Shown here piece after piece: positions 1,926 to 15,091 of a stretch of 37,582 nt of DNA. Position 1 is the first letter of the stretch. Every line of letters begins with the position of its first letter. The translations under genes were made by a program, and so were the position numbers. The notes under the pieces are model-generated. The model searched no databases. It was given only the letters and a program-made list of their open reading frames with translations, and was not told where the DNA came from. The DNA is from an uncultured Planctomycetia bacterium (GTDB taxonomy: Bacteria; Omnitrophota; Gorgyraeia; Tantalellales; Tantalellaceae). The stretch is from positions 1 to 37,582 of the forward strand of contig CAZUYM010000001.1 in the NCBI GenBank assembly GCA_964624805.1, in the 5' to 3' direction.

Positions 1926-2814
1926 GTTTAAAAGGATCTACATAGAGATAACCAATGTGTGTAATTCAGATTGCGGGTTTTGTCCTAAAACTTCGCGAAA
2001 GCCTGAGTTTATGGGGTTAGATCTCTTTGAAAAGATACTTGATGAAGTAAAGGGGTATTCAGAGTATCTTTATTTTCACGTGATGGGGGAGCCTCTGTTG
2101 CATCCGGAGATAGGCGCTTTTCTGGATCTGTGCGGAGAAAAAGGATTTAGGGTTAACATTACTACCAATGGCAAACTCATCAAAGAAACAAAGGAAAAAC
2201 TGCTAACAAGCCCCGCCATACGCGCTATAAATTTTTCGCTGCATAACTTCGATAAGAGCACACCCAAAAATGTTATAGACGGTTATCTTGATGACATTTT
2301 TGCTTTTTTGTCTGAAGCGGGAGATCCTCCCGGGTTTATTGCCTGTTTAAGGTTGTGGAACATGGAAACTAAAAATGAAGCTGACCATGCTCAGAACACA
2401 GAGAGCCCCGGTATGAATTCATATATGCTGGGAAGGATCGAAAAGTTTTTTGAAGTTCTCCGCGGGATTGAAGAGATCCCGGACGAAGGGAACGGCATTA
2501 AGATAAGGGACAATATCTATATAAGCCAGAGGTCCTTTTTTGACTGGCCCGATAAAACTCTCCCGGAGATAAGTGAGGAAGGGTTCTGTTTGGCCCTCAG
2601 GCAGCAGGTCGCGATCCTTGTGGATGGAACGGTAGTCCCGTGCTGTCTGGACAGCGAGGGGAGTATCGATCTGGGGAACATGAACGGATCCGGGTTTAAA
2701 CAGATCCTCGAAGGTAAAAGAGCCATGGACCTGTACGGTGGGTTTTCGGAAAGAAAAGTAGTTGAGAGTCTGTGCCGGAAATGCGGCTATAGAAAAAGAT
2801 TTGATCAAAAGTAA
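1915..2814 (+). CDS. Radical SAM protein with a Cys-rich C-terminal (SPASM/twitch-like) region, function unknown
   Basis: CNSDCGFC (CxxxCxxC) within 25 aa of the ATG at 1915. C-terminal VPCCLDSEG...CRKCGY. The ORF-track start at 1867 adds a basic non-conserved extension; the ATG at 1915 overlaps the ABC-F stop by 11 nt. Confidence 0.8.
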   Translation: MANKFKRIYIEITNVCNSDCGFCPKTSRKPEFMGLDLFEKILDEVKGYSEYLYFHVMGEPLLHPEIGAFLDLCGEKGFRVNITTNGKLIKETKEKLLTSPAIRAINFSLHNFDKSTPKNVIDGYLDDIFAFLSEAGDPPGFIACLRLWNMETKNEADHAQNTESPGMNSYMLGRIEKFFEVLRGIEEIPDEGNGIKIRDNIYISQRSFFDWPDKTLPEISEEGFCLALRQQVAILVDGTVVPCCLDSEGSIDLGNMNGSGFKQILEGKRAMDLYGGFSERKVVESLCRKCGYRKRFDQK

Positions 2815-2884
2815 CTGCGCATGACGTATACGCCGGTTCCCGACAGAATTTTGAGTACTTTAGGGAAAATCAGGTCTTTAGCTA

Positions 2885-2912
2885 TTGTTTTATTAGCGGG
2901 TAGTACTATAAT
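2885..2912 (+). promoter_or_regulatory. Candidate sigma70-type promoter for the hdeD-like gene
   Basis: TTGTTT (2885-2890), 16-nt spacer, TATAAT (2907-2912). AGGAGG SD lies just before the ATG at 2966. Confidence 0.4.
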
Positions 2913-2965
2913 ATAACTCAATAAAGCTCATAAAAGAAGTTCTGCGAAAAAAGAGGAGGATCGAT

Positions 2966-3493
2966 ATGGCAAACGAGATAAAAAGATCAAAAGGATGGTT
3001 TCTGACGGCGGGTATTCTTCTTATGGTTATCGGCATGGCAGCTATTACCGTTCCGTTCGCGTTCTCTATCGCTATTGAGATCCTGGTGGGCTGGGTGCTC
3101 ATAGTAAGCGGTGTTGTACAGATCGTCCATTCGTTCAAAGCGCTTAATACCGGTAGATGCATAATGAGGCTCGTAGGCGGGTTGGTTTATCTCGTGGTCG
3201 GAGGTATCTTCCTGGCTTATCCCATGCAGGGCGTTCTCACTCTAACACTTATCTTGGCGGCTCTCTTTCTCTTCGAGGGTCTTCTGAAGATAGTCATTTC
3301 GCTCCAGCATCGTCCGGAACAGAACTGGGTCTGGCTCCTTATCAGCGGTCTGGCGGGTATTGTTATCGCTACCATCATATGGGCCGGCTGGCCAAGCACC
3401 TCAGCGTGGGTAATAGGCCTTCTTGTGGGGATAAACCTGATATTCGGCGGGATGTCGCTTATAATGCTGTCATCGTCTTTGCACGAGGAATAG
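2966..3493 (+). CDS. hdeD: HdeD/DUF308-family acid-resistance membrane protein
   Basis: 175 aa with six predicted TM helices in the paired-repeat arrangement of DUF308. Resembles E. coli HdeD in layout and in the C-terminal LVGINLIFGG segment. Strong AGGAGG SD. Confidence 0.7.
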   Translation: MANEIKRSKGWFLTAGILLMVIGMAAITVPFAFSIAIEILVGWVLIVSGVVQIVHSFKALNTGRCIMRLVGGLVYLVVGGIFLAYPMQGVLTLTLILAALFLFEGLLKIVISLQHRPEQNWVWLLISGLAGIVIATIIWAGWPSTSAWVIGLLVGINLIFGGMSLIMLSSSLHEE

Positions 3494-3515
3494 GGAATAG
3501 AGAATAGAGGCGACC

Positions 3516-4940
3516 CTACAACATCATGCTGAGTTCTTCGAGAGACCTGTTCTTGGTCTCTACCCTGAAGATGAGCGTCACCATGAAGGCAAGGACCGAT
3601 AGCATCGCCAGCATGATAAGCGTGAAAGTCATACCCACCGAGGCCTTGACCACCGGCAGCATGAAGATCCCTAAAGCTGCCCCCAGTTTTGCCACCGCCG
3701 CGGCGAACCCGTGACCTGAACCGCGCATATTCGTCGGATAAAGCTCGGCCGGTATTATGAAAGTCGTGGCGTTCGGTCCCATGTTCATAAGAATATTGAA
3801 TATAATGAATCCGGAAAAAACCAGGATAAGGTTTCCGGTATTGCCGGCGTTCGCGACGGTGGAGGCGGCCAGGACCAGAAGCCCCAGTATCATTCCTCCG
3901 AAACCAAAGAGCTGCAGCTTTATGCGGCCCCATTTATCTATAAGCATGATGTTGAGCAGAAACCCCACAACAAGAAAAATATCAAGGAACATCGCTCCTT
4001 CGGTGGCCTTGAAGTCGCTGGCTATTGTGCCGAGGCCTTCCCCTGAAAAGGCCATCGCTGCCAGAATTATGGGCGTAAAGATACCCACGGCATAAGTGAT
4101 GATATCCATAAGAAACCACGGGACGACCGCGAGTGTCGTGCGTTTAATGAATTTTTTATTAAAAAGATCCCTGTAGTTGGACTTTTCAACCTTAAACTCG
4201 TCCGGAAGTTTATGGGCTTCCGCAGCCAGCTTGTGGATCTCGGATCCTCTGGAAGGCACCAGTTTCTTGATAACCTCCGCGGCTTCAGCATGTTTGCCGT
4301 GCAGAAGGTACCACCGGGCGCTTTCGGGAACGGACATCCTTAAGAGGATGACGACGATCGCCGGAAGGGCTCCGAAAGCCAGCATGAAACGCCAGGCTCC
4401 GAAAGAGGGGAATATCTTCAGTATAACCAGTCCCACAGCCGCCCCGGCGGCCATTCCAAGTGCCTGGAAACTGAAAGCTCCTATCAGCATGCGGCCTCGA
4501 GTACGGGCGGGCATGAATGCCGAAATGTAGGAAGCGCATATGGGGTAATCAGCTCCTATGCCTATTCCAAGGAGAAATCGGAACGTTATGAGGGAGACCA
4601 CATTCCACGAAAACGCCGAAAAAAGAGACAAAATAATAAAAACCACCAGATCCAGCATATATAATGCTTTTCGGCCCCACCGGTCGCTCAAAGTCCCGCC
4701 GACCGACGCCCCGACTACCGCGCCCAGGACTGCCGCCGCGCCTATTAAGCCGACTATATAAGGGGAGGTCGGGAAGGTCTTCATTATCAGAGGCAGCGCC
4801 ACCCCTATGATGAAAAGGTCGAAACCGTCCAGGAATATTCCCATCGCGGACAGCCACCATATCTTCCAGTGGACAGGTGTGAGCGGCGCCTCGTCCATCA
4901 GGCGTGTCATCTCTCTGTGAATGGATGCTCGTGTATTCAT
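3516..4940 (-). CDS. MFS transporter (sugar-porter/metabolite:H+ symporter-like), substrate unknown
   Basis: 12-TM layout, motif-A-like GTLSDRWGRK, PESARW after TM6, central cytoplasmic loop. Diverges from the decarboxylase operon. Confidence 0.85.
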   Translation of the reverse strand: MNTRASIHREMTRLMDEAPLTPVHWKIWWLSAMGIFLDGFDLFIIGVALPLIMKTFPTSPYIVGLIGAAAVLGAVVGASVGGTLSDRWGRKALYMLDLVVFIILSLFSAFSWNVVSLITFRFLLGIGIGADYPICASYISAFMPARTRGRMLIGAFSFQALGMAAGAAVGLVILKIFPSFGAWRFMLAFGALPAIVVILLRMSVPESARWYLLHGKHAEAAEVIKKLVPSRGSEIHKLAAEAHKLPDEFKVEKSNYRDLFNKKFIKRTTLAVVPWFLMDIITYAVGIFTPIILAAMAFSGEGLGTIASDFKATEGAMFLDIFLVVGFLLNIMLIDKWGRIKLQLFGFGGMILGLLVLAASTVANAGNTGNLILVFSGFIIFNILMNMGPNATTFIIPAELYPTNMRGSGHGFAAAVAKLGAALGIFMLPVVKASVGMTFTLIMLAMLSVLAFMVTLIFRVETKNRSLEELSMML

Positions 4941-5039
4941 GGTCTACTATAGTATACAGCAAAAAAAAGATATTTATAAGCCCTTCATCAAAAGAGACGA
5001 GAGGATAGCTCGGTTTTTTTTGTGACGATAATATTGCCG

Positions 5040-5067
5040 TTGCAGTATGGGGGCATAGTGTTATAAT
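5040..5067 (+). promoter_or_regulatory. Candidate promoter (extended -10) for the decarboxylase-porin-antiporter operon
   Basis: TTGCAG (5040-5045), 16-nt spacer, TGT-TATAAT (5059-5067). Confidence 0.5.
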
Positions 5068-5115
5068 TACTGTATTATGAGTTTTTACAGTGCATGCCGC
5101 AATAAAGGAGGAGTT

Positions 5116-7422
5116 ATGAAATCCAACAAGATCACCTGGCCGATATTGATAATTTCAGGACAGTTTAACGAGGCAAACGATGAAGGATTCCGTTTGAGAG
5201 AGCTGGAAGAGGAACTTCTTGAGGTTCAGGAATGCAGCGTGATCCCCTCATTCAGCTACGAAGACGGATATGAGATATTCCGCTCCAGAGCCGATTTCGG
5301 ATGTATCGTTATAGACTGGGATATTCCCTCGGAAACGGCGAAAGAGAAAATATCTCCGATGAAGATCATCCGGCTTATCCGGGAAAGGGATAAAAAAGTG
5401 CCGATACTCCTTTTGACGGGACGCATGGCTACGGGGAACATTCCGGCGGAGACCCTTGAAGATATCAATGAATGTCTCTGGAAAACAGCCGACACTGTGG
5501 AATTTCTGGCAGGAAGGATCGAGAGACACATTTCAGAATACGTAGAGGAAGTCTATCCTCCTTTTTTCGGAGAGCTTGTCGAATATGCCAGCGAATTTAA
5601 ATACGCGTGGCACACCCCGGGCCATATGGGTGGTACCGGTTTTCTGCGGTCCCCGGCGGGCGCGGCATTTTTTAAGTTTTTTGGCGAGAACATGTTCCGC
5701 TCCGACCTTTCGATCTCGGTGCCGGAACTCGGCTCTTTGTTGGATCATAGCGGAGTGACAGGCGACGCGGAGAAGAATTCCGCGAAGGCTTTCGGGGCGG
5801 ATTACAGCTATTATGTCCTGAACGGGACATCTAACGCGAATCAGATCATCTGGAGGAGCCAGCTGGTTCGGGATGATATCGCTTTTGTTGACCGCAACTG
5901 CCACAAATCGCTTAATTATTCCATGGTAATAACGGATGCTTTTCCGGTTTACATGATACCCCGGAGGAATAAGCGCGGTATAATCGGACCTGTGCGCCTT
6001 GCCGAGTTCACACCTTCCTTCATCAAGGGGAAGATAAAAGAGAACAAGCTTATTCCCGCCACGCTTAAAAAGAATAAGGTCAAGATGTCGGCTTTGACGA
6101 ATTCTACCTACGACGGCATCTGCTACAACGTTACAAAAATAAAGAAGCAGCTTGAAAAAAGTGTCGAGAACCTTCATTTTGACGAGGCCTGGTACGCGTA
6201 CGCGCATTTTCATCCTGTGTATAAGGGGTTTTATGGCATGACAGATGAAAAAGTGGACAAAAACCATCCTCCCGTATTTTGTTCCCAGTCCACGCATAAG
6301 CTGCTTACCGCGCTTTCTCAGGCGTCGATGATACATGTAAAGAACGGAGGAGCGGTAAAGGTCGAACCCGATGAATTCAACGAATCGTATATGATGCATG
6401 GTTCCACATCGCCTCAATACACGATGATAGCGTCACTGGACGTTGCTACGCGGATGATGCAGGATAACGGCCCGGTAATGATGAATGATATCATCACCGA
6501 AGCTATCCATCTCAGAAAGAATGTTGTCAGGGTAAAGAAGGAGGTTCAGAAGAAAAAGAAAGGGGACTGGTTCTTTGACATGTGGCAGCCGAAAAAGGTC
6601 AAGGTCAAGGGGAAGATGGTGGACTTTGAAGACGTCGACACCGGCTACCTTGCCGCCCATCAGGACGCGTGGGTGTTAAGCAAAAATAATAACTGGCACG
6701 GGTTCGGCGACATAGAGGATGATTTCGTCATGCTTGACCCGATAAAGCTTACCTTTACGACTCCCGGCATCGACGAGAAAGGAACGATGGCCTCCGACGG
6801 TATCCCGGCTTCAATAGTTACAAACTATCTGATAGATAAGGGAATAGTCTGCGAGAAGACCGATTATTATTCGTTCCTGCTTCTCAATTCTCTGGGTACC
6901 ACCGAAGCCAAACAGGGGACTCTTCTTTCGGCAATGCTCGGTTTTAAAAGGCTTTATGACAGAAACGCACCCTTGAGCGAGGTTTTCCCTGAGCTGGTCA
7001 CGGCCTATCCCGAAAGATACGAAAAGGTGGGTCTCAAAGACCACTCCTCGGCCATACACAAGTATTTCAAGAAACACGCGATACTTGATATGATGCAGGA
7101 GGCCTTTGAGGTCATACCGGACCAGGTCATGAAACCCGCGGAAGCGTATCACGAGGTGGTGCGCAAGAACGTGGAGTACGTCGATCTTAAAGACATGATG
7201 GGACGCGTACCCGCTGTAATGATGGTCCCTTATCCTCCCGGGATACCGATAATGATGGGAGGGGAAGCGATGAATAAAAAGGCAAAACCGATCTTCGAAT
7301 ATCTTACGCGCCGTCAGGACTTCGAAAATGAATTTCCCGGATACGAAAGCGATATCCACGGGGTGGAAAGGACGGAGAAGGACGGGAAAAAATATTTCAA
7401 AACGATGTGCATAAAAAAATGA
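5116..7422 (+). CDS. Large PLP-dependent Orn/Lys/Arg decarboxylase (fold-I, biodegradative type; most like arginine decarboxylase AdiA)
   Basis: N-terminal receiver-like wing domain. PLP-lysine motif SQSTHKLL. DRNCHKS, HFDEAWYAYA, PYPPGIP. Long collinear similarity to my recollection of E. coli AdiA (WFF..W, WHGF, MLDPIK, FKRLYD..APL..V.PEL). ATG at 5116 follows AGGAGG; the ORF-track start at 5077 lacks an SD. Confidence 0.9.
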   Translation: MKSNKITWPILIISGQFNEANDEGFRLRELEEELLEVQECSVIPSFSYEDGYEIFRSRADFGCIVIDWDIPSETAKEKISPMKIIRLIRERDKKVPILLLTGRMATGNIPAETLEDINECLWKTADTVEFLAGRIERHISEYVEEVYPPFFGELVEYASEFKYAWHTPGHMGGTGFLRSPAGAAFFKFFGENMFRSDLSISVPELGSLLDHSGVTGDAEKNSAKAFGADYSYYVLNGTSNANQIIWRSQLVRDDIAFVDRNCHKSLNYSMVITDAFPVYMIPRRNKRGIIGPVRLAEFTPSFIKGKIKENKLIPATLKKNKVKMSALTNSTYDGICYNVTKIKKQLEKSVENLHFDEAWYAYAHFHPVYKGFYGMTDEKVDKNHPPVFCSQSTHKLLTALSQASMIHVKNGGAVKVEPDEFNESYMMHGSTSPQYTMIASLDVATRMMQDNGPVMMNDIITEAIHLRKNVVRVKKEVQKKKKGDWFFDMWQPKKVKVKGKMVDFEDVDTGYLAAHQDAWVLSKNNNWHGFGDIEDDFVMLDPIKLTFTTPGIDEKGTMASDGIPASIVTNYLIDKGIVCEKTDYYSFLLLNSLGTTEAKQGTLLSAMLGFKRLYDRNAPLSEVFPELVTAYPERYEKVGLKDHSSAIHKYFKKHAILDMMQEAFEVIPDQVMKPAEAYHEVVRKNVEYVDLKDMMGRVPAVMMVPYPPGIPIMMGGEAMNKKAKPIFEYLTRRQDFENEFPGYESDIHGVERTEKDGKKYFKTMCIKK

Positions 7423-7451
7423 TTTCAAACTGTTGTTAGTTTGTAAAAAAT

Positions 7452-8747
7452 ATGAATTTTTTCCACAAAACACTATCGATGATCCTTGCGATCCTTCTGG
7501 CAGGATGTGTATTCGCTACCTATGGGGAGGCTAACACTTATCGTCGAATAACCAGAACGCATGGGTTGACCCGGGAGAAGGTCGAGCCTGTGAAAGAAGG
7601 GGAACAGGTTAGTAAAGAGCCCGGGCTTACATATGCACCCGAAACCGGGCTCACCGTGGACGCCTGGGACCTGACGTTCGATCCTTCCACCACTTTTGTT
7701 TTTCAGGGCACGCCTGACCCTAATGTGCCAGGCGCCCGAAAGACGGGGGTTTCCTGGGTGCTTTACCTGGATTTTATCAAGAAGTTCGAAGACTGGGGGG
7801 TAGCTTTTTTCGAACTCAAAACCGGTATGGGGCGCGCGCTGGCGAATTCTTTAAGCCTTTTCAACGACGTCAATTATAATTCGGACGACGTCGGAGGGAA
7901 CGCAAAAGCGCATGTTTTCTGGTACAAACAGTTTTTATTCGACAGGCAGCTTTCCATACTCTGCGGCAAGATCCTGTCCCGGGGACTTTTCGCCCAGAGC
8001 GAGTATGCCGGTGACGACGATACGCAATTCCTCGGCTATATCTTCAACGAGTCACCAACGATCGAATGGCCGTGGGATAATGCCTTTACGATAAACTCGG
8101 AATTGTGCCTGGACTCGATGGATTATCTCGAATATTCGTTCAATTACTGGGAAGGCGACGCGGACTGGCAGAAAGTATTTAAAGGCGGGATATACACCAT
8201 GCAGGTCAATGTAAAGCCTTCAAAGTTATTTGACCTGGACAAGTCGCAGTGGGACGGGAACTACAGGTTTTATGCCTGGCTGAACACGCTTTTCCATACA
8301 AAGCTTGTAGATACGGGAAGCACGCCGACGACCGACACGAAGGAATTCAATTACGGTTTCGGGTTGAGCTTTGACCAGATGATAACGGATGTATACGGTG
8401 TATTTGTCCGATGCGGTTTCCAGAGGCCCGACCTTATACCGGCGGCGGGCGGCCCCACGATCGGTTTTTCCTGGGCGGCGGGTGGACAGATGAACGGAAA
8501 GTACTGGGGAAGAGAAAATGATGTTCTCGGTCTCGGGGTAGGGCAGGTGGTGACCAGCAAAGAATACGTGGACGCGGGTAACCCGGGAAAGACCGAAGGT
8601 CATCTTGAAGCATATTACAGTTTCGCCGTGACAGATTATTTGTTTATCAGCCCTGACGCGCAGTTGGTATGGAATCCGGCCGGGGCTCCGGCCGGAGCTA
8701 CGGATCCTGTATTTGTGTACGGTGTCAGAGTGCATGCGGATTTTTGA
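7452..8747 (+). CDS. OprB-family (carbohydrate-selective-porin-like) outer-membrane beta-barrel porin
   Basis: N-terminal signal peptide. Alternating beta-strand pattern. C-terminal EAYYSFAVTDYLFISPDAQLVWNPAG...VYGVRVHADF ends in a terminal Phe, typical of OprB-family barrels. Confidence 0.7.
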   Translation: MNFFHKTLSMILAILLAGCVFATYGEANTYRRITRTHGLTREKVEPVKEGEQVSKEPGLTYAPETGLTVDAWDLTFDPSTTFVFQGTPDPNVPGARKTGVSWVLYLDFIKKFEDWGVAFFELKTGMGRALANSLSLFNDVNYNSDDVGGNAKAHVFWYKQFLFDRQLSILCGKILSRGLFAQSEYAGDDDTQFLGYIFNESPTIEWPWDNAFTINSELCLDSMDYLEYSFNYWEGDADWQKVFKGGIYTMQVNVKPSKLFDLDKSQWDGNYRFYAWLNTLFHTKLVDTGSTPTTDTKEFNYGFGLSFDQMITDVYGVFVRCGFQRPDLIPAAGGPTIGFSWAAGGQMNGKYWGRENDVLGLGVGQVVTSKEYVDAGNPGKTEGHLEAYYSFAVTDYLFISPDAQLVWNPAGAPAGATDPVFVYGVRVHADF

Positions 8748-8784
8748 TAAAGTTATACCAATGGGTTTTAAAAAAAAGGAGAAG

Positions 8785-10203
8785 ATGATGGCAGATCCGA
8801 AAAAAGGCCTTAAGCTGGGGATATTTACCCTCGCGATGATAAATGTTGCCGCGGTACTTTCACTGCGGAGTCTTCCCGCGATGGCGGATTACGGGTACGC
8901 CTTGATCTTTTATCTGGGGTTATCCTCTCTCTGCTTTTTTGTCCCGTCAGCGCTGGTATCCGCCGAACTTGCTTCAGGATGGCCCAAAGAGGGTGGTGTA
9001 TTTTTATGGGTCAAAGAGGCTTTCGGGCCCAAATGGGGTTTTGTCGCGATATTTATGCAGTGGGTCGAGAACCTGCCCTGGTTTCCGGCGGTACTGGCTT
9101 TCGCGGCATCGGCTCTCGCCTATGTCGTAAACCCGGCGTTGGCGTCCAATAAACTGTTTGTTATAGTGGTCATATGGGTCACACTCTGGATAGCTACATT
9201 CCTTAATTTCAGGGGGATGAAATTATCCGCTTTTCTCAGTTCCTCGGGTGTTATTTCCGGAACGATCATACCAGGAGTCCTTATTATTATCCTCGGGGTA
9301 ATACACGTATTTTCCGGAAAGACTCTCGCCATAACATATTCACCCGCCGCGCTTATCCCCAAGCTTGACAACCTTAACCAGTTAATGCTGCTTTCCGGTA
9401 TGATGATGGCCATTTCCGGCATGGAAATGTCTGCCGTTCACGTTACCGACGTCGAGAATCCTAAGAAAAATTTCCCGAAAGCTATCTTTATCGCCTGCGC
9501 GATAATTATCTTTTTATGCGTTGTGGGGTCCCTGTCGATAGCCATAGTCATACCGAGAATGGACATGAGTTTAAATGCGGGTGTATGCCAGGCTTTTGCC
9601 GAGTTGTTCAAAATTCACGGTATTCCCTGGATAATGCCGATAATATCCATACTTTTGGCTTACGGCGCGATTACGATGGTCGTGACATGGATGGTGGGAC
9701 CGTCAAAAGGTATGCTGGAGGTGGCAAAAGACGGATATCTGCCAAAATTCATGCAAAAGCAGAATTCCTACGGGATGCCTACCGGCACCCTGATCGTGCA
9801 GGGAGTATTCTCGAGTATAATTTCTTTAGCCGTTCTTTTTATGCCGACCGTCAGCAGCGCGTTCTGGATAATGAGCGCGCTGGCCGCGCAGCTATACCTT
9901 GTCATGTATCTTTTGATGTTCGCCGCGGCCATTAAACTGCGCTATTCTCAGCCGGAAGTCGAAAGGGCGTACGCGATCCCCGGCGGGAAGATCGGCATGT
10001 GGCTGGTTTCGGGAGTGGCGTTTGTTACGTCTCTTTTTGTTATTGTGTTCGGTTTTATTCCCACCTCCGCCGTACGTAAGGAAGGGCCGCCTGCCGTGAT
10101 CGCGTATGTCGGGTTCCTTCTTATAGGGGTGGTAGTTTTCGTTGCCGCGCCGCTTGTCTTGTATCACAACGAAGAGAGAAGAAAAAGAAAGGCGATACAA
10201 TAA
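8785..10203 (+). CDS. APC-superfamily amino acid/amine antiporter, glutamate:GABA antiporter (GadC)-family-like
   Basis: 12-TM permease. Collinear with recalled E. coli GadC blocks: GGVFLWVKEAFGPKWGF vs GGVFAWVSNTLGPRWGF; LNAGVCQAF vs LSAGVMQTF; WMVGPSKGM vs WIVGPSRGM; AIPGGK vs NIPGGK. Lacks the long GadC C-terminal plug. ATG at 8785 follows AGGAG. Confidence 0.85.
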   Translation: MMADPKKGLKLGIFTLAMINVAAVLSLRSLPAMADYGYALIFYLGLSSLCFFVPSALVSAELASGWPKEGGVFLWVKEAFGPKWGFVAIFMQWVENLPWFPAVLAFAASALAYVVNPALASNKLFVIVVIWVTLWIATFLNFRGMKLSAFLSSSGVISGTIIPGVLIIILGVIHVFSGKTLAITYSPAALIPKLDNLNQLMLLSGMMMAISGMEMSAVHVTDVENPKKNFPKAIFIACAIIIFLCVVGSLSIAIVIPRMDMSLNAGVCQAFAELFKIHGIPWIMPIISILLAYGAITMVVTWMVGPSKGMLEVAKDGYLPKFMQKQNSYGMPTGTLIVQGVFSSIISLAVLFMPTVSSAFWIMSALAAQLYLVMYLLMFAAAIKLRYSQPEVERAYAIPGGKIGMWLVSGVAFVTSLFVIVFGFIPTSAVRKEGPPAVIAYVGFLLIGVVVFVAAPLVLYHNEERRKRKAIQ

Positions 10204-10220
10204 GTAGCGCCTTTCTTTTG
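10188..10220 (+). terminator. Possible intrinsic terminator at the end of the antiporter gene
   Basis: AAAGGCG (10188-10194) pairs with CGCCTTT (10208-10214), 13-nt loop, then CTTTTG. Overlaps the stop codon. Confidence 0.35.
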
Positions 10221-10237
10221 ATGAACCCTAAATAAAT

Positions 10238-11083
10238 TTATTTACTGAAGCCCTGTGCTTTTTCCCATTCGGGCAATGTCATTGAAAGCATGTCAGACGG
10301 CAGAGCGCCTTTGGGTATGGCGTTTTTAGCGAACACGGCATACGGAGCGCAGGTGAGCGCGCATCCCACGTAACCTTCCGGTATCCATTCGGTCTTATAT
10401 CCCAGGAAGATCTCCTTGTACTTGACGTTCGAATCGTCGCCGCAGCGCACGATGCTTGTAGCGATATTTTCCATCAGCTTATCGAGATAGGCCACTCTGG
10501 CTTCGTCGCTGTCATGAGGAATGGAATCACCGGCATCTTCGATAAAAAGGTTAGAATCTTTCTCCCGGTCTTCGGCTATCGCCAGAGCGATAGCGCACCA
10601 GATGGAAGTAGGTCCGGTGACCGTATTATCTTTGACCGCGCAGTTCACGTGAGCTCCCGGGAGCAGGGGAAACCTTCTCTGGTCGTTAGTCCCGAAAAGG
10701 CGGCTGCCCGCGTTAAGCAGGGGTTCGACTGAATATACCGGGATCTCGACCCCATCTGAGCGTTTTCTGGTGAATAAAGGCTTAATGGATCCGTCGGCGA
10801 TCGATTCCTGCTTTGCCAGATGGTATCCCCAGACCGCGCCGTTGAGGCCGTTAAAAGAAGAGGCGGCGATCATATTTATCTGTCCCACGTATGTGCCCAG
10901 GGTCTCGGCCCTGTCGTATGAGACGATAGTCTCCAGGACAGTATCCATATCTTTTTTCACCTTGCCGGTCTGAAGCTTCAGGACGGAGATATATCCTAAG
11001 CCAGTCGCTCCGGGGTTTCCGTATCCATCACAATATGAGTCAAAGGGTCCGACTGCTCCATTTACTATATCTTCCAGCTTCAT
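10238..11083 (-). CDS. hdcA: Pyruvoyl-dependent histidine decarboxylase proenzyme (HdcA-like)
   Basis: IVSYDRAETLGTYVGQINMIAASSFNG matches the Lactobacillus 30a HdcA block IVSYDRAETKNAYIGQINMTTASSFTG, which contains the Ser-Ser autocleavage site (codons at 10856-10861). Further collinear similarity (SIWCAIALA, LFIEDAG, PEW). The ORF track starts at a GTG (11092); the ATG at 11083 has better spacing from AAGGA. Confidence 0.85.
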   Translation of the reverse strand: MKLEDIVNGAVGPFDSYCDGYGNPGATGLGYISVLKLQTGKVKKDMDTVLETIVSYDRAETLGTYVGQINMIAASSFNGLNGAVWGYHLAKQESIADGSIKPLFTRKRSDGVEIPVYSVEPLLNAGSRLFGTNDQRRFPLLPGAHVNCAVKDNTVTGPTSIWCAIALAIAEDREKDSNLFIEDAGDSIPHDSDEARVAYLDKLMENIATSIVRCGDDSNVKYKEIFLGYKTEWIPEGYVGCALTCAPYAVFAKNAIPKGALPSDMLSMTLPEWEKAQGFSK

Positions 11084-11206
11084 GATGATCACCGTCCTTT
11101 TTTGGTTGTAAGCGTATATTATATCGCACCATCACCGTCCTGAAAATAAGAAAATGGGAGAGAGATCCAAATAGCTGCCGCCCCTGAGCTAAAACTGCCA
11201 GGAAGC

Positions 11207-11235
11207 TTTACATAAAGCGCTTCTCGTAGTATAGT
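11207..11235 (+). promoter_or_regulatory. Near-consensus sigma70-type promoter
   Basis: TTTACA (11207-11212), 17-nt spacer, TATAGT (11230-11235). Confidence 0.55.
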
Positions 11236-11241
11236 TATATC

Positions 11242-11310
11242 TCTAACTGATCCCCGTTCGCGCGGGGATGGCAGCCACGAGGATGTTAGTTCTTAACCTC
11301 GTGGTTTTTT
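11242..11310 (+). ncRNA. Candidate ~70-nt small RNA or terminating leader of typA (two hairpins, second is an intrinsic terminator)
   Basis: Lies downstream of the promoter above. Hairpin 1 is ATCCCCG/CGGGGAT (11250-11256/11263-11269). Hairpin 2 is CCACGAGG/CCTCGTGG (11275-11282/11297-11304) followed by T6 (11305-11310). Confidence 0.35.
11275..11310 (+). terminator. Intrinsic terminator-like hairpin 55 nt upstream of typA
   Basis: Perfect 8-bp GC-rich stem, 14-nt loop, T6 tail. Confidence 0.6.
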
Positions 11311-11365
11311 ATTTGTCTTATCAGGGGGCGGCAAGAGAGAAAAGCCAAAAGGAAACAGTGGTATT

Positions 11366-13192
11366 ATGTCGAATCAAAAGAGAAGAAAAGATATAAGGAA
11401 TATCGCGATCATCGCGCATGTCGATCATGGCAAAACCACGCTTGTCGACGCGCTGCTGAAATATACCGGCGCGTATGATTTTAAATCCGGGGAAACCACG
11501 ATCATGGATTCAAATCCTCTCGAGAAGGAGAGAGGGATAACCATACTTTCCAAAAACGCTTCACTTCAATATAAGGGGGTGCAGTTTAACATAGTCGACA
11601 CCCCGGGACATGCTGATTTCGGCAGTGAAGTGGAGAGGATACTTCAAATGGTAGATGGGGTGCTTCTTCTGGTGGATGCTTTTGAAGGGCCGATGCCGCA
11701 GACAAAATTTGTATTAAAAAAATCTCTGGAGCTGCACCTGAAGCCGATACTTGTAGTTAATAAGCTGGACCGTCCTCACGCGCGTCCAAATGAAGTCGCC
11801 GATATGACTTTTGATCTTTTCTGTGACTTGAACGCTACGGATGAGCAGCTCGATTTTCCCATAGTGTACGCCTCGGGAAAGGACGGGTACGCGACACTCG
11901 ACCTTGATGAGCCGAGCGATTCCGTGAAGCCGCTTCTTGAGACTATACTGCACAGGGTACTTCCCCCGGTAGCTGACCCGGATATGCCTTTTCAGATGCT
12001 TGTTACGATGCTTGATTATGATTCATATGTAGGCATTATAGCTATTGGGCGCATATTTCACGGAGAGGTCTGTGTCGGAGAAACTGTTTCGGTTGTAAAA
12101 CGTAACGGCACTGTCGATAAGGCTAAAGTAACAAAGATAATGAAATATAAGGGATTAGTGCGTGTAGAAGCCGATAAAGCGATCGCGGGGGATATTATTA
12201 CTCTTGCAGGAATGGAAAATGTGCAGGTTGGCGAGACGCTGGCCTCTCTTAAAGATCCAAAGGGACTTCCAACAGTAAAGATCGATGAACCGACGATCTC
12301 CATGAATTTTTCTCATAATACCAGCCCGCTTGCCGGTAAGGATGGAGGAAGATTTTTAACGTCCAGGCATATCCGCGAACGACTGCAGCATGAAGCAAAG
12401 ATAAACGTCGGGATAAAGGTTGAAGAGGCAGATGGAGGCGAGCGCTTCAAAGTTTCGGGACGGGGAGAATTGCATTTATCCATATTGATAGAGACGATGC
12501 GCCGGGAAGGATATGAGATGGAAGTGTCCCGGCCTCAGGTAATTTTAAAAAAATTGGGGGACCAGGTGCTTGAGCCTGTTGAGGAAGTAGTGATCGAAGT
12601 AGATCCCCAATATCAGGGCTCCGTTATGCAGGCTATTGGAGAGCGCAAAGCGGCGATGCAAAAGATGGAGACAACTTCAGCCGGCGCGATGAGGATGGAA
12701 TTCACTATCGCCTCCAGAGCGCTTATCGGGTTCAGGAGCGATTTTTTGCTCATGACGCGCGGCAACGGGATCATGTACCAGAACTTTCTGGAATATCAGA
12801 CATATAAAGGGGATATGCCCGAGAGGCAGAGGGGGGTGCTCGTTTCACAGTCGGCGGGTGAGGCGGTTGCCTACGCGCTTTTTAATCTGCAGGCGAGGGG
12901 AGAGATATTTATCAGTCCCGGGGACGACCTTTATGAGGGGATGGTCCTGGGGGTCAACAATAAGGGAGTCGACCTGGTTGTCAACGCTTTGAAGGGTAAA
13001 AAACTCACTAATATGCGTTCGTCCGGGTCCGACGACGCTATTCAGCTTATCCCTCCCCGGGAAAAGACGCTTGAATTCGCTCTTGAGTTTATCGAAGATG
13101 ATGAACTGGTCGAGATAACCCCCCAGAATATCCGGATCAGAAAGTCTCATTTGACCGAGAACGCCCGCAAGCTGATAAATAAGAAGAAATAA
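11366..13192 (+). CDS. typA: Translational GTPase TypA/BipA
   Basis: G1 AHVDHGKTT, G3 DTPGH, G4 NKLD. EF-G-like domain order with the BipA-specific C-terminal domain. 608 aa. Confidence 0.95.
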   Translation: MSNQKRRKDIRNIAIIAHVDHGKTTLVDALLKYTGAYDFKSGETTIMDSNPLEKERGITILSKNASLQYKGVQFNIVDTPGHADFGSEVERILQMVDGVLLLVDAFEGPMPQTKFVLKKSLELHLKPILVVNKLDRPHARPNEVADMTFDLFCDLNATDEQLDFPIVYASGKDGYATLDLDEPSDSVKPLLETILHRVLPPVADPDMPFQMLVTMLDYDSYVGIIAIGRIFHGEVCVGETVSVVKRNGTVDKAKVTKIMKYKGLVRVEADKAIAGDIITLAGMENVQVGETLASLKDPKGLPTVKIDEPTISMNFSHNTSPLAGKDGGRFLTSRHIRERLQHEAKINVGIKVEEADGGERFKVSGRGELHLSILIETMRREGYEMEVSRPQVILKKLGDQVLEPVEEVVIEVDPQYQGSVMQAIGERKAAMQKMETTSAGAMRMEFTIASRALIGFRSDFLLMTRGNGIMYQNFLEYQTYKGDMPERQRGVLVSQSAGEAVAYALFNLQARGEIFISPGDDLYEGMVLGVNNKGVDLVVNALKGKKLTNMRSSGSDDAIQLIPPREKTLEFALEFIEDDELVEITPQNIRIRKSHLTENARKLINKKK

Positions 13193-13195
13193 CCG

Positions 13196-13213
13196 GCCCG
13201 AGGGGGCTTTTTT
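13196..13213 (+). terminator. Weak terminator-like element after typA
   Basis: GCCC/GGGC 4-bp stem (13196-13199/13204-13207) followed by T6 (13208-13213). Confidence 0.3.
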
Positions 13214-13252
13214 GAAAAAATATCAGAGGGGTAAAAAAAAACAGTATTTATG

Positions 13253-13280
13253 TTGACGTGGGGGGACTATGAGGTATAAT
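13253..13280 (+). promoter_or_regulatory. Near-consensus promoter of the cold-shock protein gene
   Basis: TTGACG (13253-13258), 16-nt spacer, TATAAT (13275-13280). Implies a 5' UTR of about 120 nt. Confidence 0.6.
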
Positions 13281-13320
13281 ACACCTTGTAGAGGTAGTAA
13301 ATGAGGAGTGATAGTTTTAA

Positions 13321-13358
13321 ACCACAGGGTTAGGAACATAATCGCCTTGTGGTTTTTT
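13321..13358 (+). promoter_or_regulatory. Terminator-like hairpin inside the csp 5' leader (possible attenuator or thermosensor element)
   Basis: ACCACAGGG (13321-13329) pairs with CCTTGTGGT (13345-13353) with one G-U pair, 15-nt loop, T-run to 13358. Lies 50 nt before the ATG. Confidence 0.45.
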
Positions 13359-13408
13359 GCATTAGGCCTTATTTACGGTAAAGTAATTTTTAACAGGAGG
13401 TAGAAGCA

Positions 13409-13612
13409 ATGGCAACAGGAACAGTAAAATGGTTCAATGACTCAAAAGGTTATGGTTTTATTACACCGGATGACGGAAGCAAAGATTGTTTCGTTCATCA
13501 CAACGCGATCCAGGGCGAAGGTTTCAAGTCTCTGGGCGAAGGCCAGAAGGTCCAGTTTGACGTCGAAGAAGGCGCCAAAGGTCCGCAGGCTACAAATGTA
13601 GTAAAGCTGTAA
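13409..13612 (+). CDS. cspA: Cold-shock domain protein (CspA family)
   Basis: 67 aa. RNP1 KGYGFI and RNP2 CFVHH motifs. AGGAGG SD. Confidence 0.95.
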
Positions 13613-13629
13613 TTTGCTGAATAGAAGAT

Positions 13630-13664
13630 AAGGCCTGGCAAGAAATTGCCAGGCCTTTTTTTTT
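13630..13664 (+). terminator. Strong intrinsic terminator after csp
   Basis: 11-bp perfect stem (AAGGCCTGGCA/TGCCAGGCCTT), 6-nt loop, T-run of about 9. Confidence 0.85.
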
Positions 13665-13752
13665 GGAAAGAGCTATAACTTAACCGGAAAGTCTTTATGG
13701 TATCTGCTTCACCGTGATCGCTTTAGGGGCATGGAGATATGGATAAAGGATA

Positions 13753-14970: not shown

Positions 14971-15091
14971 CTTCTGTCCTCATATCAGACCTCCGTTAAG
15001 ATATAATATACCCCAAAAAGTGTGCAAGCACAAAGAGAATAAAGTGATGTTAAATGACCGAGTACTTTCTATTTGAATATTCCTTGAACGG

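What the first reader, a model, noticed from the sequence alone, without database searches (positions are those of the whole stretch)
2966..11092. Composite acid-resistance/amine-forming island: two unrelated decarboxylases around one antiporter, plus porin, HdeD and MFS
Seen in the sequence: hdeD-like (+), MFS (-), then an apparent operon of an AdiA-like PLP decarboxylase, an OprB-type porin and a GadC-family antiporter (+), with a convergent pyruvoyl HdcA-like gene (-). Established knowledge: canonical decarboxylation-antiport modules pair one decarboxylase with one cognate antiporter (AdiA/AdiC, GadB/GadC, CadA/CadB, HdcA/HdcP). Inference: this locus combines a fold-I PLP enzyme and a pyruvoyl enzyme with a single recognisable antiporter of a third lineage and an outer-membrane channel. 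That suggests either a multi-substrate proton-consuming system or a new substrate pairing. I saw no mobile-element genes at its borders.
Basis: partly seen in the sequence, partly recalled or inferred. Interest (0 to 1): 0.7.

Follow-up and report, generated by a model that had tools for sequence, protein, structure and literature searches.

The report
Lysine-histidine decarboxylase cassette with porin
An Omnitrophota bacterium carries a 6.2 kb strain-variable block of four genes (a probable lysine decarboxylase, an outer-membrane porin, one amino-acid/amine antiporter and a pyruvoyl histidine decarboxylase) that looks like a proton-consuming system in which two enzymes share one transporter; the basic design was described from genome surveys in 2021 and has not been tested experimentally.

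Summary
Only four of them form a unit. A near-identical sibling contig (97-99% nucleotide identity on both flanks) has 24 bp in place of window 4979-11201. So the decarboxylase, porin, antiporter and hdcA are one presence/absence cassette, and the HdeD-like and MFS genes belong to the chromosomal backbone.

The trio of large PLP decarboxylase, GadC-family antiporter and pyruvoyl HdcA recurs. In other phyla it is a tight co-directional operon, and in bog Acidimicrobiia it appears in a second gene order. Mou et al. 2021 already reported this design as an "arginine/histidine three-component decarboxylation system".

Three points here are new:
- The PLP enzyme carries the lysine epsilon-ammonium pocket (T/S/S/E, as in LdcI and LdcA; AdiA has A/G/E/T). 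Its close relatives sit beside CadB-like antiporters. It is probably a lysine decarboxylase, not an arginine decarboxylase.
- An OprB-fold porin lies inside the operon, as AaxA does in the chlamydial aaxABC operon.
- hdcA is inverted relative to the conserved operon.

Orthologues of the antiporter pair with either decarboxylase alone, which supports a shared transporter. All functions are inferred from sequence. I rate this a new variant of a known kind, of moderate interest.

The parts
4979..11201 (.). 6223-bp accessory cassette (islet) carrying the four genes below. A near-identical sibling genome has 24 bp in its place.
   Evidence: blastn of L096 against the window gives 96.8% identity to 1033-4978 and 99.3% to 11202-15740. 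L096 has GGACAAACAGGCCGGGACCATTGT at the junction. No direct repeats and no mobility genes were seen.
5116..7422 (+). Wing-domain AAT-fold PLP decarboxylase of the LdcA/Adc/LdcI group, predicted to be a lysine decarboxylase. The mechanical ORF and the database gene call start at 5077.
   Evidence: Pfam OKR_DC_1_N, OKR_DC_1 and OKR_DC_1_C. Best PDB match is P. aeruginosa LdcA 6Q6I at 702 bits, against 620-630 for AdiA. Pocket residues are T/S/S/E, as in CadA and LdcA; AdiA has A/G/E/T and SpeF has C/C/A/E. The PLP-lysine motif THK is present. AAGGAGG lies 5 nt before ATG 5116.
7452..8747 (+). OprB-family outer-membrane porin inserted between the decarboxylase and the antiporter.
   Evidence: Pfam PF04966 at 81 bits. 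The protein has an N-terminal signal-type helix with a possible lipobox (LLAGC) and a C-terminal Phe. The model has pLDDT 87 and pTM 0.82, and its best PDB match is OprB 4GEY. Named homologues are almost all Omnitrophota 'carbohydrate porin'.
8785..10203 (+). APC-superfamily antiporter of the glutamate:GABA (GadC/TyrP) lineage, proposed to exchange lysine/cadaverine and histidine/histamine. The mechanical ORF starts at TTG 8713.
   Evidence: AA_permease_2 at 231 bits. TIGR03813 at 498 bits (cut-off 650), TyrP 342, AdiC 49, TIGR04298 49. PDB GadC 4DJI at 230 bits. Only 24% identity over about 230 residues to L. reuteri HdcP. Orthologues at 64% identity or more pair with the decarboxylase only, with HdcA only, or with both. 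AAGGAG precedes ATG 8785.
10183..10219 (.). Hairpin between the convergent antiporter and hdcA genes, overlapping the antiporter stop codon; a likely bidirectional terminator.
   Evidence: AAAGAAAGGCG-12 nt-CGCCTTTCTTT. RNA fold gives -18.9 kcal/mol, z = -7.1 against shuffles.
10238..11083 (-). Pyruvoyl-dependent histidine decarboxylase proenzyme (HdcA-type), inverted relative to the conserved operon. The mechanical ORF runs to GTG 11092.
   Evidence: PF02329 at 284 bits; TIGR00541 at 257 bits (cut-off 347). Alignment to 1PYA/1HQ6 shows the Ser78-Ser79 cleavage site, I56/Y59/D60 (= I59/Y62/D63) and F183/E185 (= F195/E197). These residues are invariant in 26 relatives. The 281-aa product is on record as P0001.
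11118..11146 (-). Promoter-like site for hdcA, inside the cassette.
   Evidence: TTTTCA-17-TATAAT, 10 of 12 matches. This is a consensus match only.
5040..5068 (+). Promoter-like site upstream of the decarboxylase, inside the cassette (TTGCAG ... TGT-TATAAT).
   Evidence: Read directly from the sequence. The scanner did not list it. Weak evidence.
2966..4940 (.). DUF308/HdeD-like gene (+) and MFS gene (-). These are chromosomal backbone, not part of the cassette.
   Evidence: Both are present at more than 90% protein identity in the sibling contig L096, which lacks the cassette. Neither has a homologue next to the module in any of 160 related loci, except one 26%-identical MFS in L013.

Best explanation
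Window 4979-11201 is a strain-variable four-gene cassette in the chromosome of an Omnitrophota bacterium. I propose that it encodes a decarboxylation/antiport system in which two enzymes share one inner-membrane exchanger and one outer-membrane channel.

Proposed mechanism:
1. Lysine and histidine cross the outer membrane through the OprB-type porin.
2. The GadC-lineage antiporter takes them up in exchange for their amines.
3. In the cytoplasm the LdcA-like PLP enzyme converts lysine to cadaverine, and the pyruvoyl enzyme HdcA converts histidine to histamine. Each reaction consumes one proton.
4. The more positively charged amines leave through the same antiporter and porin.

The net effect is alkalinisation of the cytoplasm plus an outward movement of positive charge. 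That gives acid resistance, proton-motive-force generation, or both.

What is shown:
- gene families, folds and catalytic residues;
- the cassette boundaries;
- recurrence of the three-gene module;
- pairing of antiporter orthologues with either enzyme alone.

What is inferred:
- the substrates (lysine; histidine);
- the dual specificity of the antiporter;
- the role of the porin;
- the physiological purpose.
For: Cassette: the sibling contig L096 matches both flanks at 97-99% and lacks exactly these 6223 bp.

Recurrence of the module:
- Decarboxylase -> antiporter -> HdcA is a tight co-directional operon in MAGs labelled Actinomycetes, Gaiellales, Planctomycetia and unclassified bacteria. Identities to the window proteins are 67-90% (decarboxylase), 73-82% (antiporter) and 76-86% (HdcA) for most of these loci.
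- In L084 the antiporter and hdcA genes overlap by 11 nt.
- A second order, antiporter -> HdcA -> decarboxylase, occurs in about 11 Acidimicrobiaceae/Dormibacteraeota MAGs, several of them from bogs.

Lysine assignment:
- The LdcI epsilon-ammonium pocket is T149/S181/S183/E526 (PMC12091041).
- The pattern is T/S/S/E in the window enzyme, in all 19 module-linked homologues, in 70 of 70 metagenomic relatives, in CadA and in LdcA.
- It is A/G/E/T in E. coli AdiA. The first three positions (A, G, E) are also seen in the Salmonella and P. stuartii Adc alignments. It is C/C/A/E in SpeF.
- Relatives at 70-74% identity sit beside CadB-like antiporters. In L097 the neighbour scores 576 bits against NF007754 and 401 against AdiC.

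Histidine assignment: the self-cleavage site and the imidazole-binding and proton-donor residues of 1PYA are conserved and invariant in the clade.

Shared antiporter: within the clade at 64% identity or more to the window antiporter, members stand with the decarboxylase only (L112-L115, L119, L120, L005), with HdcA only (L005, L008, L010), or with both.

Porin:
- OprB fold.
- OprB porins of another lineage also sit between the antiporter and HdcA in L007 and in the Chlamydiae MAG L010.
- AaxA of chlamydial aaxABC is the functional precedent (PMC2720952; bioRxiv 10.1101/2025.07.10.664186).

Design precedent: PMC8465708.

Host: the best named TypA hits are all Omnitrophota, at 91% identity.
Against: - No experiment exists for any member of these three clades.
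- In the window hdcA is convergent, with its own promoter-like site and a terminator hairpin, so it is not co-transcribed with the antiporter.
- The closest HdcA relative (87%, L002/L004) stands alone, with no transporter within 10 kb.
- Among the 80 best decarboxylase relatives in metagenomes, only one has an HdcA nearby. The triple is therefore a minority arrangement from the decarboxylase side.
- One genome (L005) splits the system into two pairs with paralogous antiporters. This could mean each paralogue is specific for one substrate.
- All characterised members of the GadC lineage in the profile libraries carry Glu/Gln/GABA or Tyr/tyramine. None carries basic amino acids.
- P. aeruginosa LdcA, the closest solved relative, is not an acid-stress enzyme (PMC6257575).
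- The pocket rule rests on a handful of characterised enzymes.
Confidence: 0.6

Rival explanations
1. There are two unrelated functions side by side. Decarboxylase-porin-antiporter is an ordinary two-component lysine/cadaverine system. hdcA is an independently transcribed gene that does not use this antiporter; it might use another transporter or serve an intracellular role.
For: hdcA is convergent, has its own promoter-like site and is separated by a strong hairpin. The nearest HdcA homologues (87%) are solitary genes. Decarboxylase -> antiporter pairs exist without HdcA (L114, L115, L119). In L005 the two enzymes have separate paralogous antiporters.
Against: All four genes are gained or lost together as one cassette. 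In at least five other lineages hdcA is the last gene of the same operon, and in one it overlaps the antiporter gene. A second gene order preserves the same trio. Orthologues of this antiporter also pair with HdcA alone (L008, L010).
Confidence: 0.18
2. It is the arginine/histidine three-component system exactly as labelled by Mou et al. 2021. The PLP enzyme is an AdiA-type arginine decarboxylase, and the antiporter exchanges arginine/agmatine and histidine/histamine.
For: The best NCBIfam model is the AdiA equivalog NF011603 at 737 bits, against 650 for LdcC. PMC8465708 annotates such clusters as adiA/antiporter/hdcA. Carriel et al. found the relationships among the Adc, LdcA and LdcI groups unresolved.
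Against: The score is far below the AdiA cut-off of 1167. All four pocket positions match the lysine enzymes and none matches E. coli AdiA. The first three AdiA residues are also seen in Salmonella and P. stuartii Adc. The best solved relative is the lysine decarboxylase LdcA. Close relatives neighbour CadB-like rather than AdiC-like antiporters.
Confidence: 0.1
3. The cassette is biosynthetic or catabolic rather than a stress or energy device. It would make cadaverine and histamine for polyamine pools, cell-envelope modification, siderophores or signalling, with the transporter acting as a plain importer or exporter. A further variant is that the PLP enzyme has a non-basic substrate such as glutamate, which would match the GadC-like carrier.
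For: LdcA of P. aeruginosa is growth-phase regulated, supplies cadaverine and does not affect low-pH survival (PMC6257575). A member of the same superfamily long annotated as a Lys/Orn/Arg decarboxylase proved to be a glutamate decarboxylase (PMC13506015). No pH-sensing regulator lies in the cassette.
Against: A catabolic-type wing-domain decarboxylase tightly coupled to an exchanger-family transporter and a porin is the hallmark of precursor/product antiport systems. Many carriers of the module come from bog or peat MAGs (record titles). The Rv2531c-type enzyme is a distant long form (146 bits). It relies on arginine residues that H. alvei LdcI lacks at the corresponding positions, whereas the window enzyme keeps the acidic and polar lysine pocket.
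Confidence: 0.1

Closest known systems
adiA/antiporter/hdcA 'arginine/histidine three-component decarboxylation system' predicted by Mou et al. 2021 (BMC Genomics 22:695, PMC8465708)
   Same: It has the same three protein families side by side: an OKR-type PLP decarboxylase, one APC antiporter (their 'gadC' type occurs with pyruvoyl hdcA in a Parachlamydiales MAG and in Actinobacteriota) and a pyruvoyl HdcA. Their Table S1 contains two genomes that are also among my loci: GCA_002773835 (L016) and the Acidimicrobiia ATN3 MAG (L047).
   Different: Their survey lists no Omnitrophota or Planctomycetota. The text I read mentions no porin component. They call the PLP enzyme arginine decarboxylase from annotation, whereas the pocket residues and neighbours examined here indicate lysine. 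In the window hdcA is inverted, and the whole unit is a strain-variable cassette. Neither study includes experiments.
[quoted passage not shown] 2013, as cited in PMC8465708)
   Same: Two decarboxylases are served by one promiscuous amino-acid/amine exchanger. It is the only such system described as experimentally established in the text I read.
   Different: Both of its enzymes are PLP ODC-type and its transporter is PotE-like. Its genes lie 24 kb apart, the host is Gram-positive, and there is no porin.
Chlamydial aaxABC arginine:agmatine exchange system (Smith & Graham 2008, as cited in PMC2720952)
   Same: An OprB-superfamily porin is encoded in one operon with a pyruvoyl decarboxylase and an APC antiporter. 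The porin stimulates the system. The host belongs to the PVC group.
   Different: It has one decarboxylase only (a pyruvoyl arginine decarboxylase of a different family from HdcA). Its antiporter is of the AaxC/AdiC type. I could not compare the window porin with AaxA by sequence, because no AaxA sequence was available to me.
E. coli CadA/CadB and P. aeruginosa LdcA
   Same: The window decarboxylase has the same three-domain architecture, the PLP-lysine motif and the T/S/S/E lysine pocket. It is 44% identical to LdcA and 39% to CadA.
   Different: There is no CadC-type regulator. The partner antiporter is of the GadC lineage, not CadB. LdcA itself has no adjacent antiporter role in acid stress.
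HdcA/HdcP(/HdcB/HisRS) histidine decarboxylation loci of lactic acid bacteria
   Same: The enzyme is a pyruvoyl HdcA with a conserved cleavage site and active-site residues. It is 35.8-40% identical to the LAB, staphylococcal and Tetragenococcus HdcA genes found on plasmids.
   Different: There is no hdcB and no hisS. The antiporter belongs to another APC lineage: 24% identity over about half its length to L. reuteri HdcP. The TIGR00541 score is below its cut-off.

Membership tests
Pyruvoyl-dependent histidine decarboxylase (HdcA; PF02329 / TIGR00541) | HDC proenzyme domain over the full length | tested here: met
   PF02329 at 284 bits, covering profile positions 4-291 of 294.
Pyruvoyl-dependent histidine decarboxylase (HdcA; PF02329 / TIGR00541) | Ser-Ser self-cleavage site that generates the pyruvoyl group | tested here: met
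   S78-S79 align with S81-S82 of L. saerimneri 30a HDC, at the end of the beta chain and the start of the alpha chain (1HQ6/1PYA). Both are invariant in 26 relatives. Cleavage itself was not testable.
Pyruvoyl-dependent histidine decarboxylase (HdcA; PF02329 / TIGR00541) | Histidine-binding and catalytic residues (I59, Y62, D63, F195, E197 of 1PYA; the residue list is from my own knowledge of that structure) | tested here: met
   I56, Y59, D60, F183 and E185 are aligned and identical, and invariant in alignment A1.
Pyruvoyl-dependent histidine decarboxylase (HdcA; PF02329 / TIGR00541) | Score above the curated equivalog cut-off | tested here: not met
   TIGR00541 scores 256.9, below the cut-off of 346.65. 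The protein belongs to a divergent environmental clade, 36-40% identical to the Firmicutes enzymes.
Pyruvoyl-dependent histidine decarboxylase (HdcA; PF02329 / TIGR00541) | Histidine decarboxylase activity | not testable with these tools
   Needs an enzyme assay.
Lysine decarboxylases of the wing-domain AAT-fold group (LdcI/LdcC/LdcA) | Three-domain architecture (wing, PLP core, C-terminal domain) with the PLP-binding lysine | tested here: met
   OKR_DC_1_N, OKR_DC_1 and OKR_DC_1_C. The THK motif aligns with CadA K367, and H245 is conserved.
Lysine decarboxylases of the wing-domain AAT-fold group (LdcI/LdcC/LdcA) | Epsilon-ammonium pocket T149/S181/S183/E526 (H. alvei LdcI cryo-EM, PMC12091041) | tested here: met
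   T/S/S/E in the window enzyme, in all module-linked homologues, and in CadA and LdcA (T/S/S also in LdcC). AdiA has A/G/E/T and SpeF has C/C/A/E.
Lysine decarboxylases of the wing-domain AAT-fold group (LdcI/LdcC/LdcA) | Curated NCBIfam cut-off for LdcC or CadA | tested here: not met
   NF011928 scores 650, below 968. NF011929 scores 597, below 1056. The output listed no LdcA-specific model.
Biodegradative arginine decarboxylase AdiA (NF011603) | Equivalog cut-off and the Adc-type pocket residues | tested here: not met
   The score is 737, below the cut-off of 1167. None of the four pocket positions matches AdiA.
Glutamate:GABA antiporter lineage of the APC superfamily (GadC / TyrP) | Closest profile and closest solved structure are GadC | tested here: met
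   TIGR03813 at 498 bits, NF053662 at 460, TyrP at 342; all other APC models score 98 or less. 4DJI scores 230 bits against 46 for AdiC.
Glutamate:GABA antiporter lineage of the APC superfamily (GadC / TyrP) | Orthology to GadC itself (equivalog cut-off; adjacency to a glutamate decarboxylase or glutaminase) | tested here: not met
   The score is below the cut-offs of 650 and 640. The neighbours are Lys-type and His-type decarboxylases.
Known histidine/histamine antiporters (TIGR04298; NF040512; L. reuteri HdcP) | Sequence membership | tested here: not met
   TIGR04298 scores 49 bits against a cut-off of 750. NF040512 is not among the hits. Identity to L. reuteri HdcP is 24% over about 230 residues.
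OprB porin family (PF04966) | Profile match and a 16-18-stranded OprB-like barrel | tested here: met
   PF04966 at 81 bits, above the cut-off of 22.9. The model has pLDDT 87 and its top PDB hit is 4GEY (E 4e-20, TM 0.67/0.69). I did not count the strands.
Three-component decarboxylation system (two decarboxylases, one exchanger) | Two decarboxylases co-located with a single antiporter, recurrently | tested here: met
   19 of 80 HdcA-centred loci carry a decarboxylase homologue and a homologue of the window antiporter. Two gene orders occur, across several phyla. In the window the genes form one cassette.
Three-component decarboxylation system (two decarboxylases, one exchanger) | The one exchanger transports both substrate/product pairs | not testable with these tools
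   Only indirect support: orthologues pair with either enzyme alone.
HdeD acid-resistance protein (NF007577), as part of the island | Equivalog score and co-inheritance with the cassette | tested here: not met
   The score is 88, below the cut-off of 189. The gene is present in the sibling that lacks the cassette. It is absent from all related loci.
Mobile genomic island | Presence/absence polymorphism between close relatives | tested here: met
   6223 bp against 24 bp, with flanks 97-99% identical.
Mobile genomic island | Integrase or transposase, flanking direct repeats, tRNA target | tested here: not met
   None was seen in the ORFs or at the junctions. I did not scan for tRNAs; the flanks are the MFS and typA genes.

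The most novel reading that the evidence does not exclude
The GadC-lineage transporter is a previously uncharacterised cation-selective exchanger. It would handle both lysine/cadaverine and histidine/histamine, a specificity unknown in that lineage. Together with a dedicated OprB-type channel, it would make a portable four-component 'basic amino acid' proton sink or proton-motive-force generator. This cassette moves between strains and phyla (Omnitrophota, Planctomycetota, Chlamydiota, Actinomycetota). In energy-limited, ultra-small Omnitrophota it might serve mainly for energy conservation rather than acid defence.
Probability: 0.4. Interest if true: 0.55.

Novelty: new variant of a known kind. 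Interest (0 to 1): 0.4.

Why it matters
If the inference holds, three things follow.

First, the environmental 'arginine/histidine' three-component clusters in the literature are really lysine/histidine systems. Annotation pipelines that call these enzymes AdiA and these carriers GadC would be wrong for a widespread group of uncultured bacteria.

Second, the glutamate:GABA antiporter lineage would gain a branch that works on basic amino acids and can serve two enzymes. That is a useful case for studying how APC exchangers change or broaden specificity.

Third, the clean presence/absence polymorphism gives a natural experiment in Omnitrophota, a phylum without cultured representatives in this clade. 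It could show what such a cassette contributes in situ, for example tolerance of acidic or fermentative micro-niches, or energy from amino-acid decarboxylation. Cadaverine and histamine producers also matter for biogenic-amine budgets in sediments, peat and guts.

Tried and rejected
- Exact look-up of the mechanical HdcA ORF failed because the recorded gene starts 3 codons later; P0001 worked.
- I tested whether the antiporter is simply the Gram-positive HdcP. It is not: 24% identity over half the length.
- I checked whether the closest porin homologues (74% and 67%) also sit in decarboxylase operons. They do not; their neighbours are ion channels, Trk genes and two-component genes. The porin is therefore a local recruit from the general Omnitrophota OprB pool. 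Only the 56% homologue is linked to a GadC-lineage carrier, and that one is with an asparaginase.
- I asked whether the 346-aa gene upstream of the operon in L084, and the one in L005, is a hidden porin. In L084 it is a repeat protein without a family. In L005 it reads as a LacI-type regulator from its sequence (N-terminal helix-turn-helix motif).
- My greedy ORF maps failed in high-GC loci, where opposite-strand ORFs won. I relied on tblastn instead.
- Rfam found nothing inside the cassette.
- No direct repeats were visible at the cassette junctions.
- Base composition does not set the cassette apart from its flanks.
- Smith & Graham 2008 is not held in the library, so the AaxA facts come from papers that cite it.
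- An NJ tree of the decarboxylases did not resolve the placement relative to AdiA and LdcA, in line with the published lack of resolution. I therefore used the pocket residues and the neighbouring genes instead.
- I considered glutamate as substrate because of the GadC-like carrier and the Rv2531c precedent. I rejected it because the pocket is the acidic and polar lysine type and Rv2531c is only distantly related.

Full report

Yes.

| Coordinates | Strand | Gene | Evidence |
|---|---|---|---|
| 2966-3493 | + | DUF308/HdeD-like membrane protein | Pfam 81 bits |
| 3516-4940 | - | MFS transporter | Sugar_tr 202 bits |
| 5077-7422 | + | three-domain Orn/Lys/Arg-type PLP decarboxylase | OKR_DC_1 473 bits |
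| 7452-8747 | + | OprB-family porin | PF04966 81 bits |
| 8713-10203 | + | APC-superfamily transporter | closest model GadC |
| 10238-11092 | - | pyruvoyl histidine decarboxylase | PF02329 284 bits |

The flanks are ordinary chromosomal genes: ABC-F and radical-SAM/SPASM on the left, TypA and a cspA leader on the right. Further on come RlmL, a DEAD-box helicase, heme and Trk genes.

Shine-Dalgarno sequences suggest slightly later starts than the mechanical ORFs: ATG 5116 for the decarboxylase and ATG 8785 for the transporter.

The host is an Omnitrophota bacterium. The best named TypA hits, at 91% identity, are all Omnitrophota. Nearly all named porin homologues are too.

**2. What is the unit?**

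A JGI contig (L096) carries the same backbone: ABC-F, rSAM, DUF308, MFS, TypA, CSD and CPA2. It is 96.8% identical to the window on the left of the locus and 99.3% on the right. It has 24 bp where the window has positions 4979-11201.

The decarboxylase, porin, transporter and hdcA are therefore one 6223-bp presence/absence cassette between near-identical strains. The HdeD-like and MFS genes stay behind in the cassette-free strain. They have no counterparts next to the module in any of 160 related loci, so they are backbone and not part of an 'acid island'. No integrase, transposase or direct repeat marks the junctions.

**3. Does the synteny recur?**

I scanned one genome per species for HdcA relatives and ran tblastn with the window proteins.
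- 19 of 80 loci carry both a homologue of the large decarboxylase and a homologue of the window transporter.
- 10 more carry the transporter homologue without the decarboxylase. In most of these it lies directly beside hdcA.
- The closest group is a tight co-directional operon, decarboxylase -> transporter -> hdcA. It is found in MAGs labelled Actinomycetes, Gaiellales, Planctomycetia and BMS3Abin01, and in unclassified bacteria. Identities are 67-90% (decarboxylase) and 73-82% (transporter).
- In L084 the transporter and hdcA genes overlap by 11 nt.
- About eleven Acidimicrobiaceae/Dormibacteraeota MAGs, several of them from bogs, keep the same trio in another order: transporter -> hdcA -> decarboxylase.

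The window differs from the conserved operon in two ways. A porin gene is inserted between decarboxylase and transporter. And hdcA is inverted, so it now converges on the transporter gene. A strong hairpin (-18.9 kcal/mol, z -7.1) lies between them, and hdcA has its own promoter-like site.

**4. Is this already known?**

Largely yes. Mou et al. 2021 (PMC8465708) surveyed GTDB and UHGG for histidine decarboxylase clusters.
- They found it in Actinobacteriota, Fusobacteriota and Bacteroidota.
- They also noted 'gadC'-type antiporters beside pyruvoyl hdcA in a Parachlamydiales MAG and in Actinobacteriota.
- Two of their genomes are among my loci: L016 and L047.
- They cite the L. saerimneri lysine/ornithine system as the first three-component system.

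Their list has no Omnitrophota or Planctomycetota, and the text I read mentions no porin.

**5. What does the PLP enzyme act on?**

Profile and structure-sequence searches place it in the AdiA/LdcA/LdcI group, below every curated cut-off.

| Reference | Score (bits) |
|---|---|
| AdiA NCBIfam model | 737 (cut-off 1167) |
| P. aeruginosa LdcA (6Q6I) | 702 |
| AdiA structures | 620-630 |
| LdcI structures | about 520 |

The deep branching of these groups is unresolved in the literature (PMC6257575) and in my NJ tree. I therefore used two other lines of evidence.

(a) Pocket residues. Cryo-EM of H. alvei LdcI with a lysine analogue defines the epsilon-ammonium pocket as T149, S181, S183 and E526 (PMC12091041). 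I aligned E. coli CadA, AdiA and SpeF, taken from the MG1655 record, and LdcA, rebuilt from the PDB alignment.

| Enzyme(s) | Pocket pattern |
|---|---|
| CadA, LdcA | T/S/S/E |
| LdcC (first three positions only seen) | T/S/S |
| E. coli AdiA | A/G/E/T |
| Salmonella AdiA, P. stuartii Adc (first three positions only seen) | A/G/E |
| SpeF | C/C/A/E |
| Window enzyme, all 19 module-linked homologues, 70 of 70 metagenomic relatives | T/S/S/E |

(b) Neighbouring genes. In a decarboxylase-centred metagenome scan, relatives at 70-74% identity sit beside APC antiporters whose best model is the cadaverine/lysine antiporter CadB. In L097 the neighbour scores 576 bits (cut-off 585), against 401 for AdiC.

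Both lines point to lysine. This is an inference, not a measurement. The recent finding that another member of this superfamily is a glutamate decarboxylase (PMC13506015) shows how fragile such labels are.

**6. Is the pyruvoyl enzyme a histidine decarboxylase?**

Aligned to the L. saerimneri 30a enzyme (1PYA/1HQ6), it keeps several features:
- the Ser-Ser cleavage site (S78-S79);
- the residues that line the imidazole pocket (I56, Y59, D60, F183);
- the proton donor (E185).

All of these are invariant in 26 clade members. The clade is large, with 804 hits at 68-87% identity among the best 120. It spans MAGs labelled Omnitrophota, Auribacterota, Planctomycetota, Chlamydiota, Deltaproteobacteria and Actinomycetota.

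It scores below the TIGR00541 cut-off and has no hdcB or hisS partner. Histidine is the best-supported substrate.

**7. What does the transporter carry?**

It belongs to the GadC/TyrP lineage. It is not related to either known type of histidine/histamine antiporter.

A tree of its homologues, labelled by gene context, shows three kinds of context within the clade at 64% identity or more:
- members with both enzymes;
- members with the lysine-type decarboxylase only (L112-L115, L119, L120, and one copy in L005);
- members with HdcA only (L008, L010, and the other copy in L005).

The simplest reading is that this lineage handles basic amino acids and their amines, and can serve either enzyme or both. 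L005, where the trio is split into two pairs with paralogous carriers, is compatible with that reading. It would also fit sub-specialisation of the paralogues.

**8. The porin**

The model is confident (pLDDT 87, pTM 0.82). Its best solved match is P. putida OprB.

Its nearest sequence relatives lie in unrelated contexts, so it was recruited locally. But porins of the same family, from a different lineage, also sit between the transporter and hdcA in L007 and in a Chlamydiae MAG, L010. A 56% homologue heads a porin -> GadC-lineage carrier -> asparaginase operon.

The functional precedent is AaxA of the chlamydial aaxABC operon. It is an outer-membrane porin that stimulates an arginine decarboxylase/antiporter system (PMC2720952). 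It is reported to belong to the OprB superfamily and to resemble 4GEY (bioRxiv 10.1101/2025.07.10.664186).

**9. Proposed mechanism**

Lysine and histidine would enter through the porin and the shared exchanger. Each is decarboxylated in the cytoplasm, which consumes one proton per turnover. Cadaverine and histamine then leave by the same route, carrying out one extra positive charge.

This would raise cytoplasmic pH and build membrane potential. Whether its main value is acid defence or energy conservation cannot be decided from sequence.

**10. Verdict**

The locus is a four-gene variant, with an added porin and an inverted hdcA, of a three-component design already predicted in 2021. It is newly seen in Omnitrophota as a strain-variable cassette. 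I re-assign the PLP enzyme from arginine to lysine.

I rate it a new variant of a known kind, with interest 0.4. Confidence in the overall explanation is 0.6, broken down as follows:
- about 0.9 for the cassette and the family assignments;
- about 0.7 for lysine as the PLP enzyme's substrate;
- about 0.5 for a truly dual-specificity carrier.

Noticed in passing
L093:5669-9464 and L094:1147-4942: An OprB porin (56% identical to the window porin) is followed by a GadC-lineage APC carrier (42% identical to the window carrier; TIGR03813 424 bits) and then a type II asparaginase. This looks like an amidase-based counterpart of the decarboxylase cassette. From my own knowledge, it recalls the E. coli glutaminase YbaS/GadC system.
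   Followed up: partly
L005:3-2322 and L005:7466-10840: One MAG contig carries the system split in two. One part is decarboxylase -> carrier (78% identical). The other is a LacI-type regulator (by its sequence) -> carrier (73%) -> HdcA (82%). A third, 41%-identical carrier converges on hdcA.
   Followed up: partly
window 11207-11320: A promoter-like site (TTTACA-17-TATAGT) is followed by two hairpins, the second ending in a T7 run, just upstream of typA. The region is 99% conserved in the cassette-free sibling, so it is backbone. It could be a leader/attenuator or a small RNA. There is no Rfam match.
   Followed up: no
window 13348-13660: Rfam cspA thermoregulator (RF01766, 101 bits; gathering score 78) on the + strand. 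The sibling contig L096 has a cold-shock-domain gene at the corresponding place.
   Followed up: no
window 5077-5116 and 8713-8785: The database gene call for the decarboxylase starts at ATG 5077. However, AAGGAGG lies 5 nt before ATG 5116, and the relatives are 768 aa, so the start is probably mis-called by 13 codons. The transporter likewise has AAGGAG before ATG 8785. None of my three guessed start variants for the transporter (8761, 8785, 8788) was found in the protein collection.
   Followed up: partly
L002:10001-10852 and L004:10001-10849: The closest HdcA relative (87%) is a solitary gene in an Omnitrophota MAG, with no transporter within 10 kb. L002 comes from the same metagenome (JGI 3300060480) as the cassette-free sibling L096. 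It is unexplained how a solitary enzyme of this clade obtains and disposes of substrate and product.
   Followed up: no
window 7452-7530: The porin N-terminus contains LLAGC, a lipobox-like motif. The database gene call starts 9 codons later, at MILAILLAGC. It is not resolved whether the protein is a lipoprotein-type porin or is cut by signal peptidase I.
   Followed up: no
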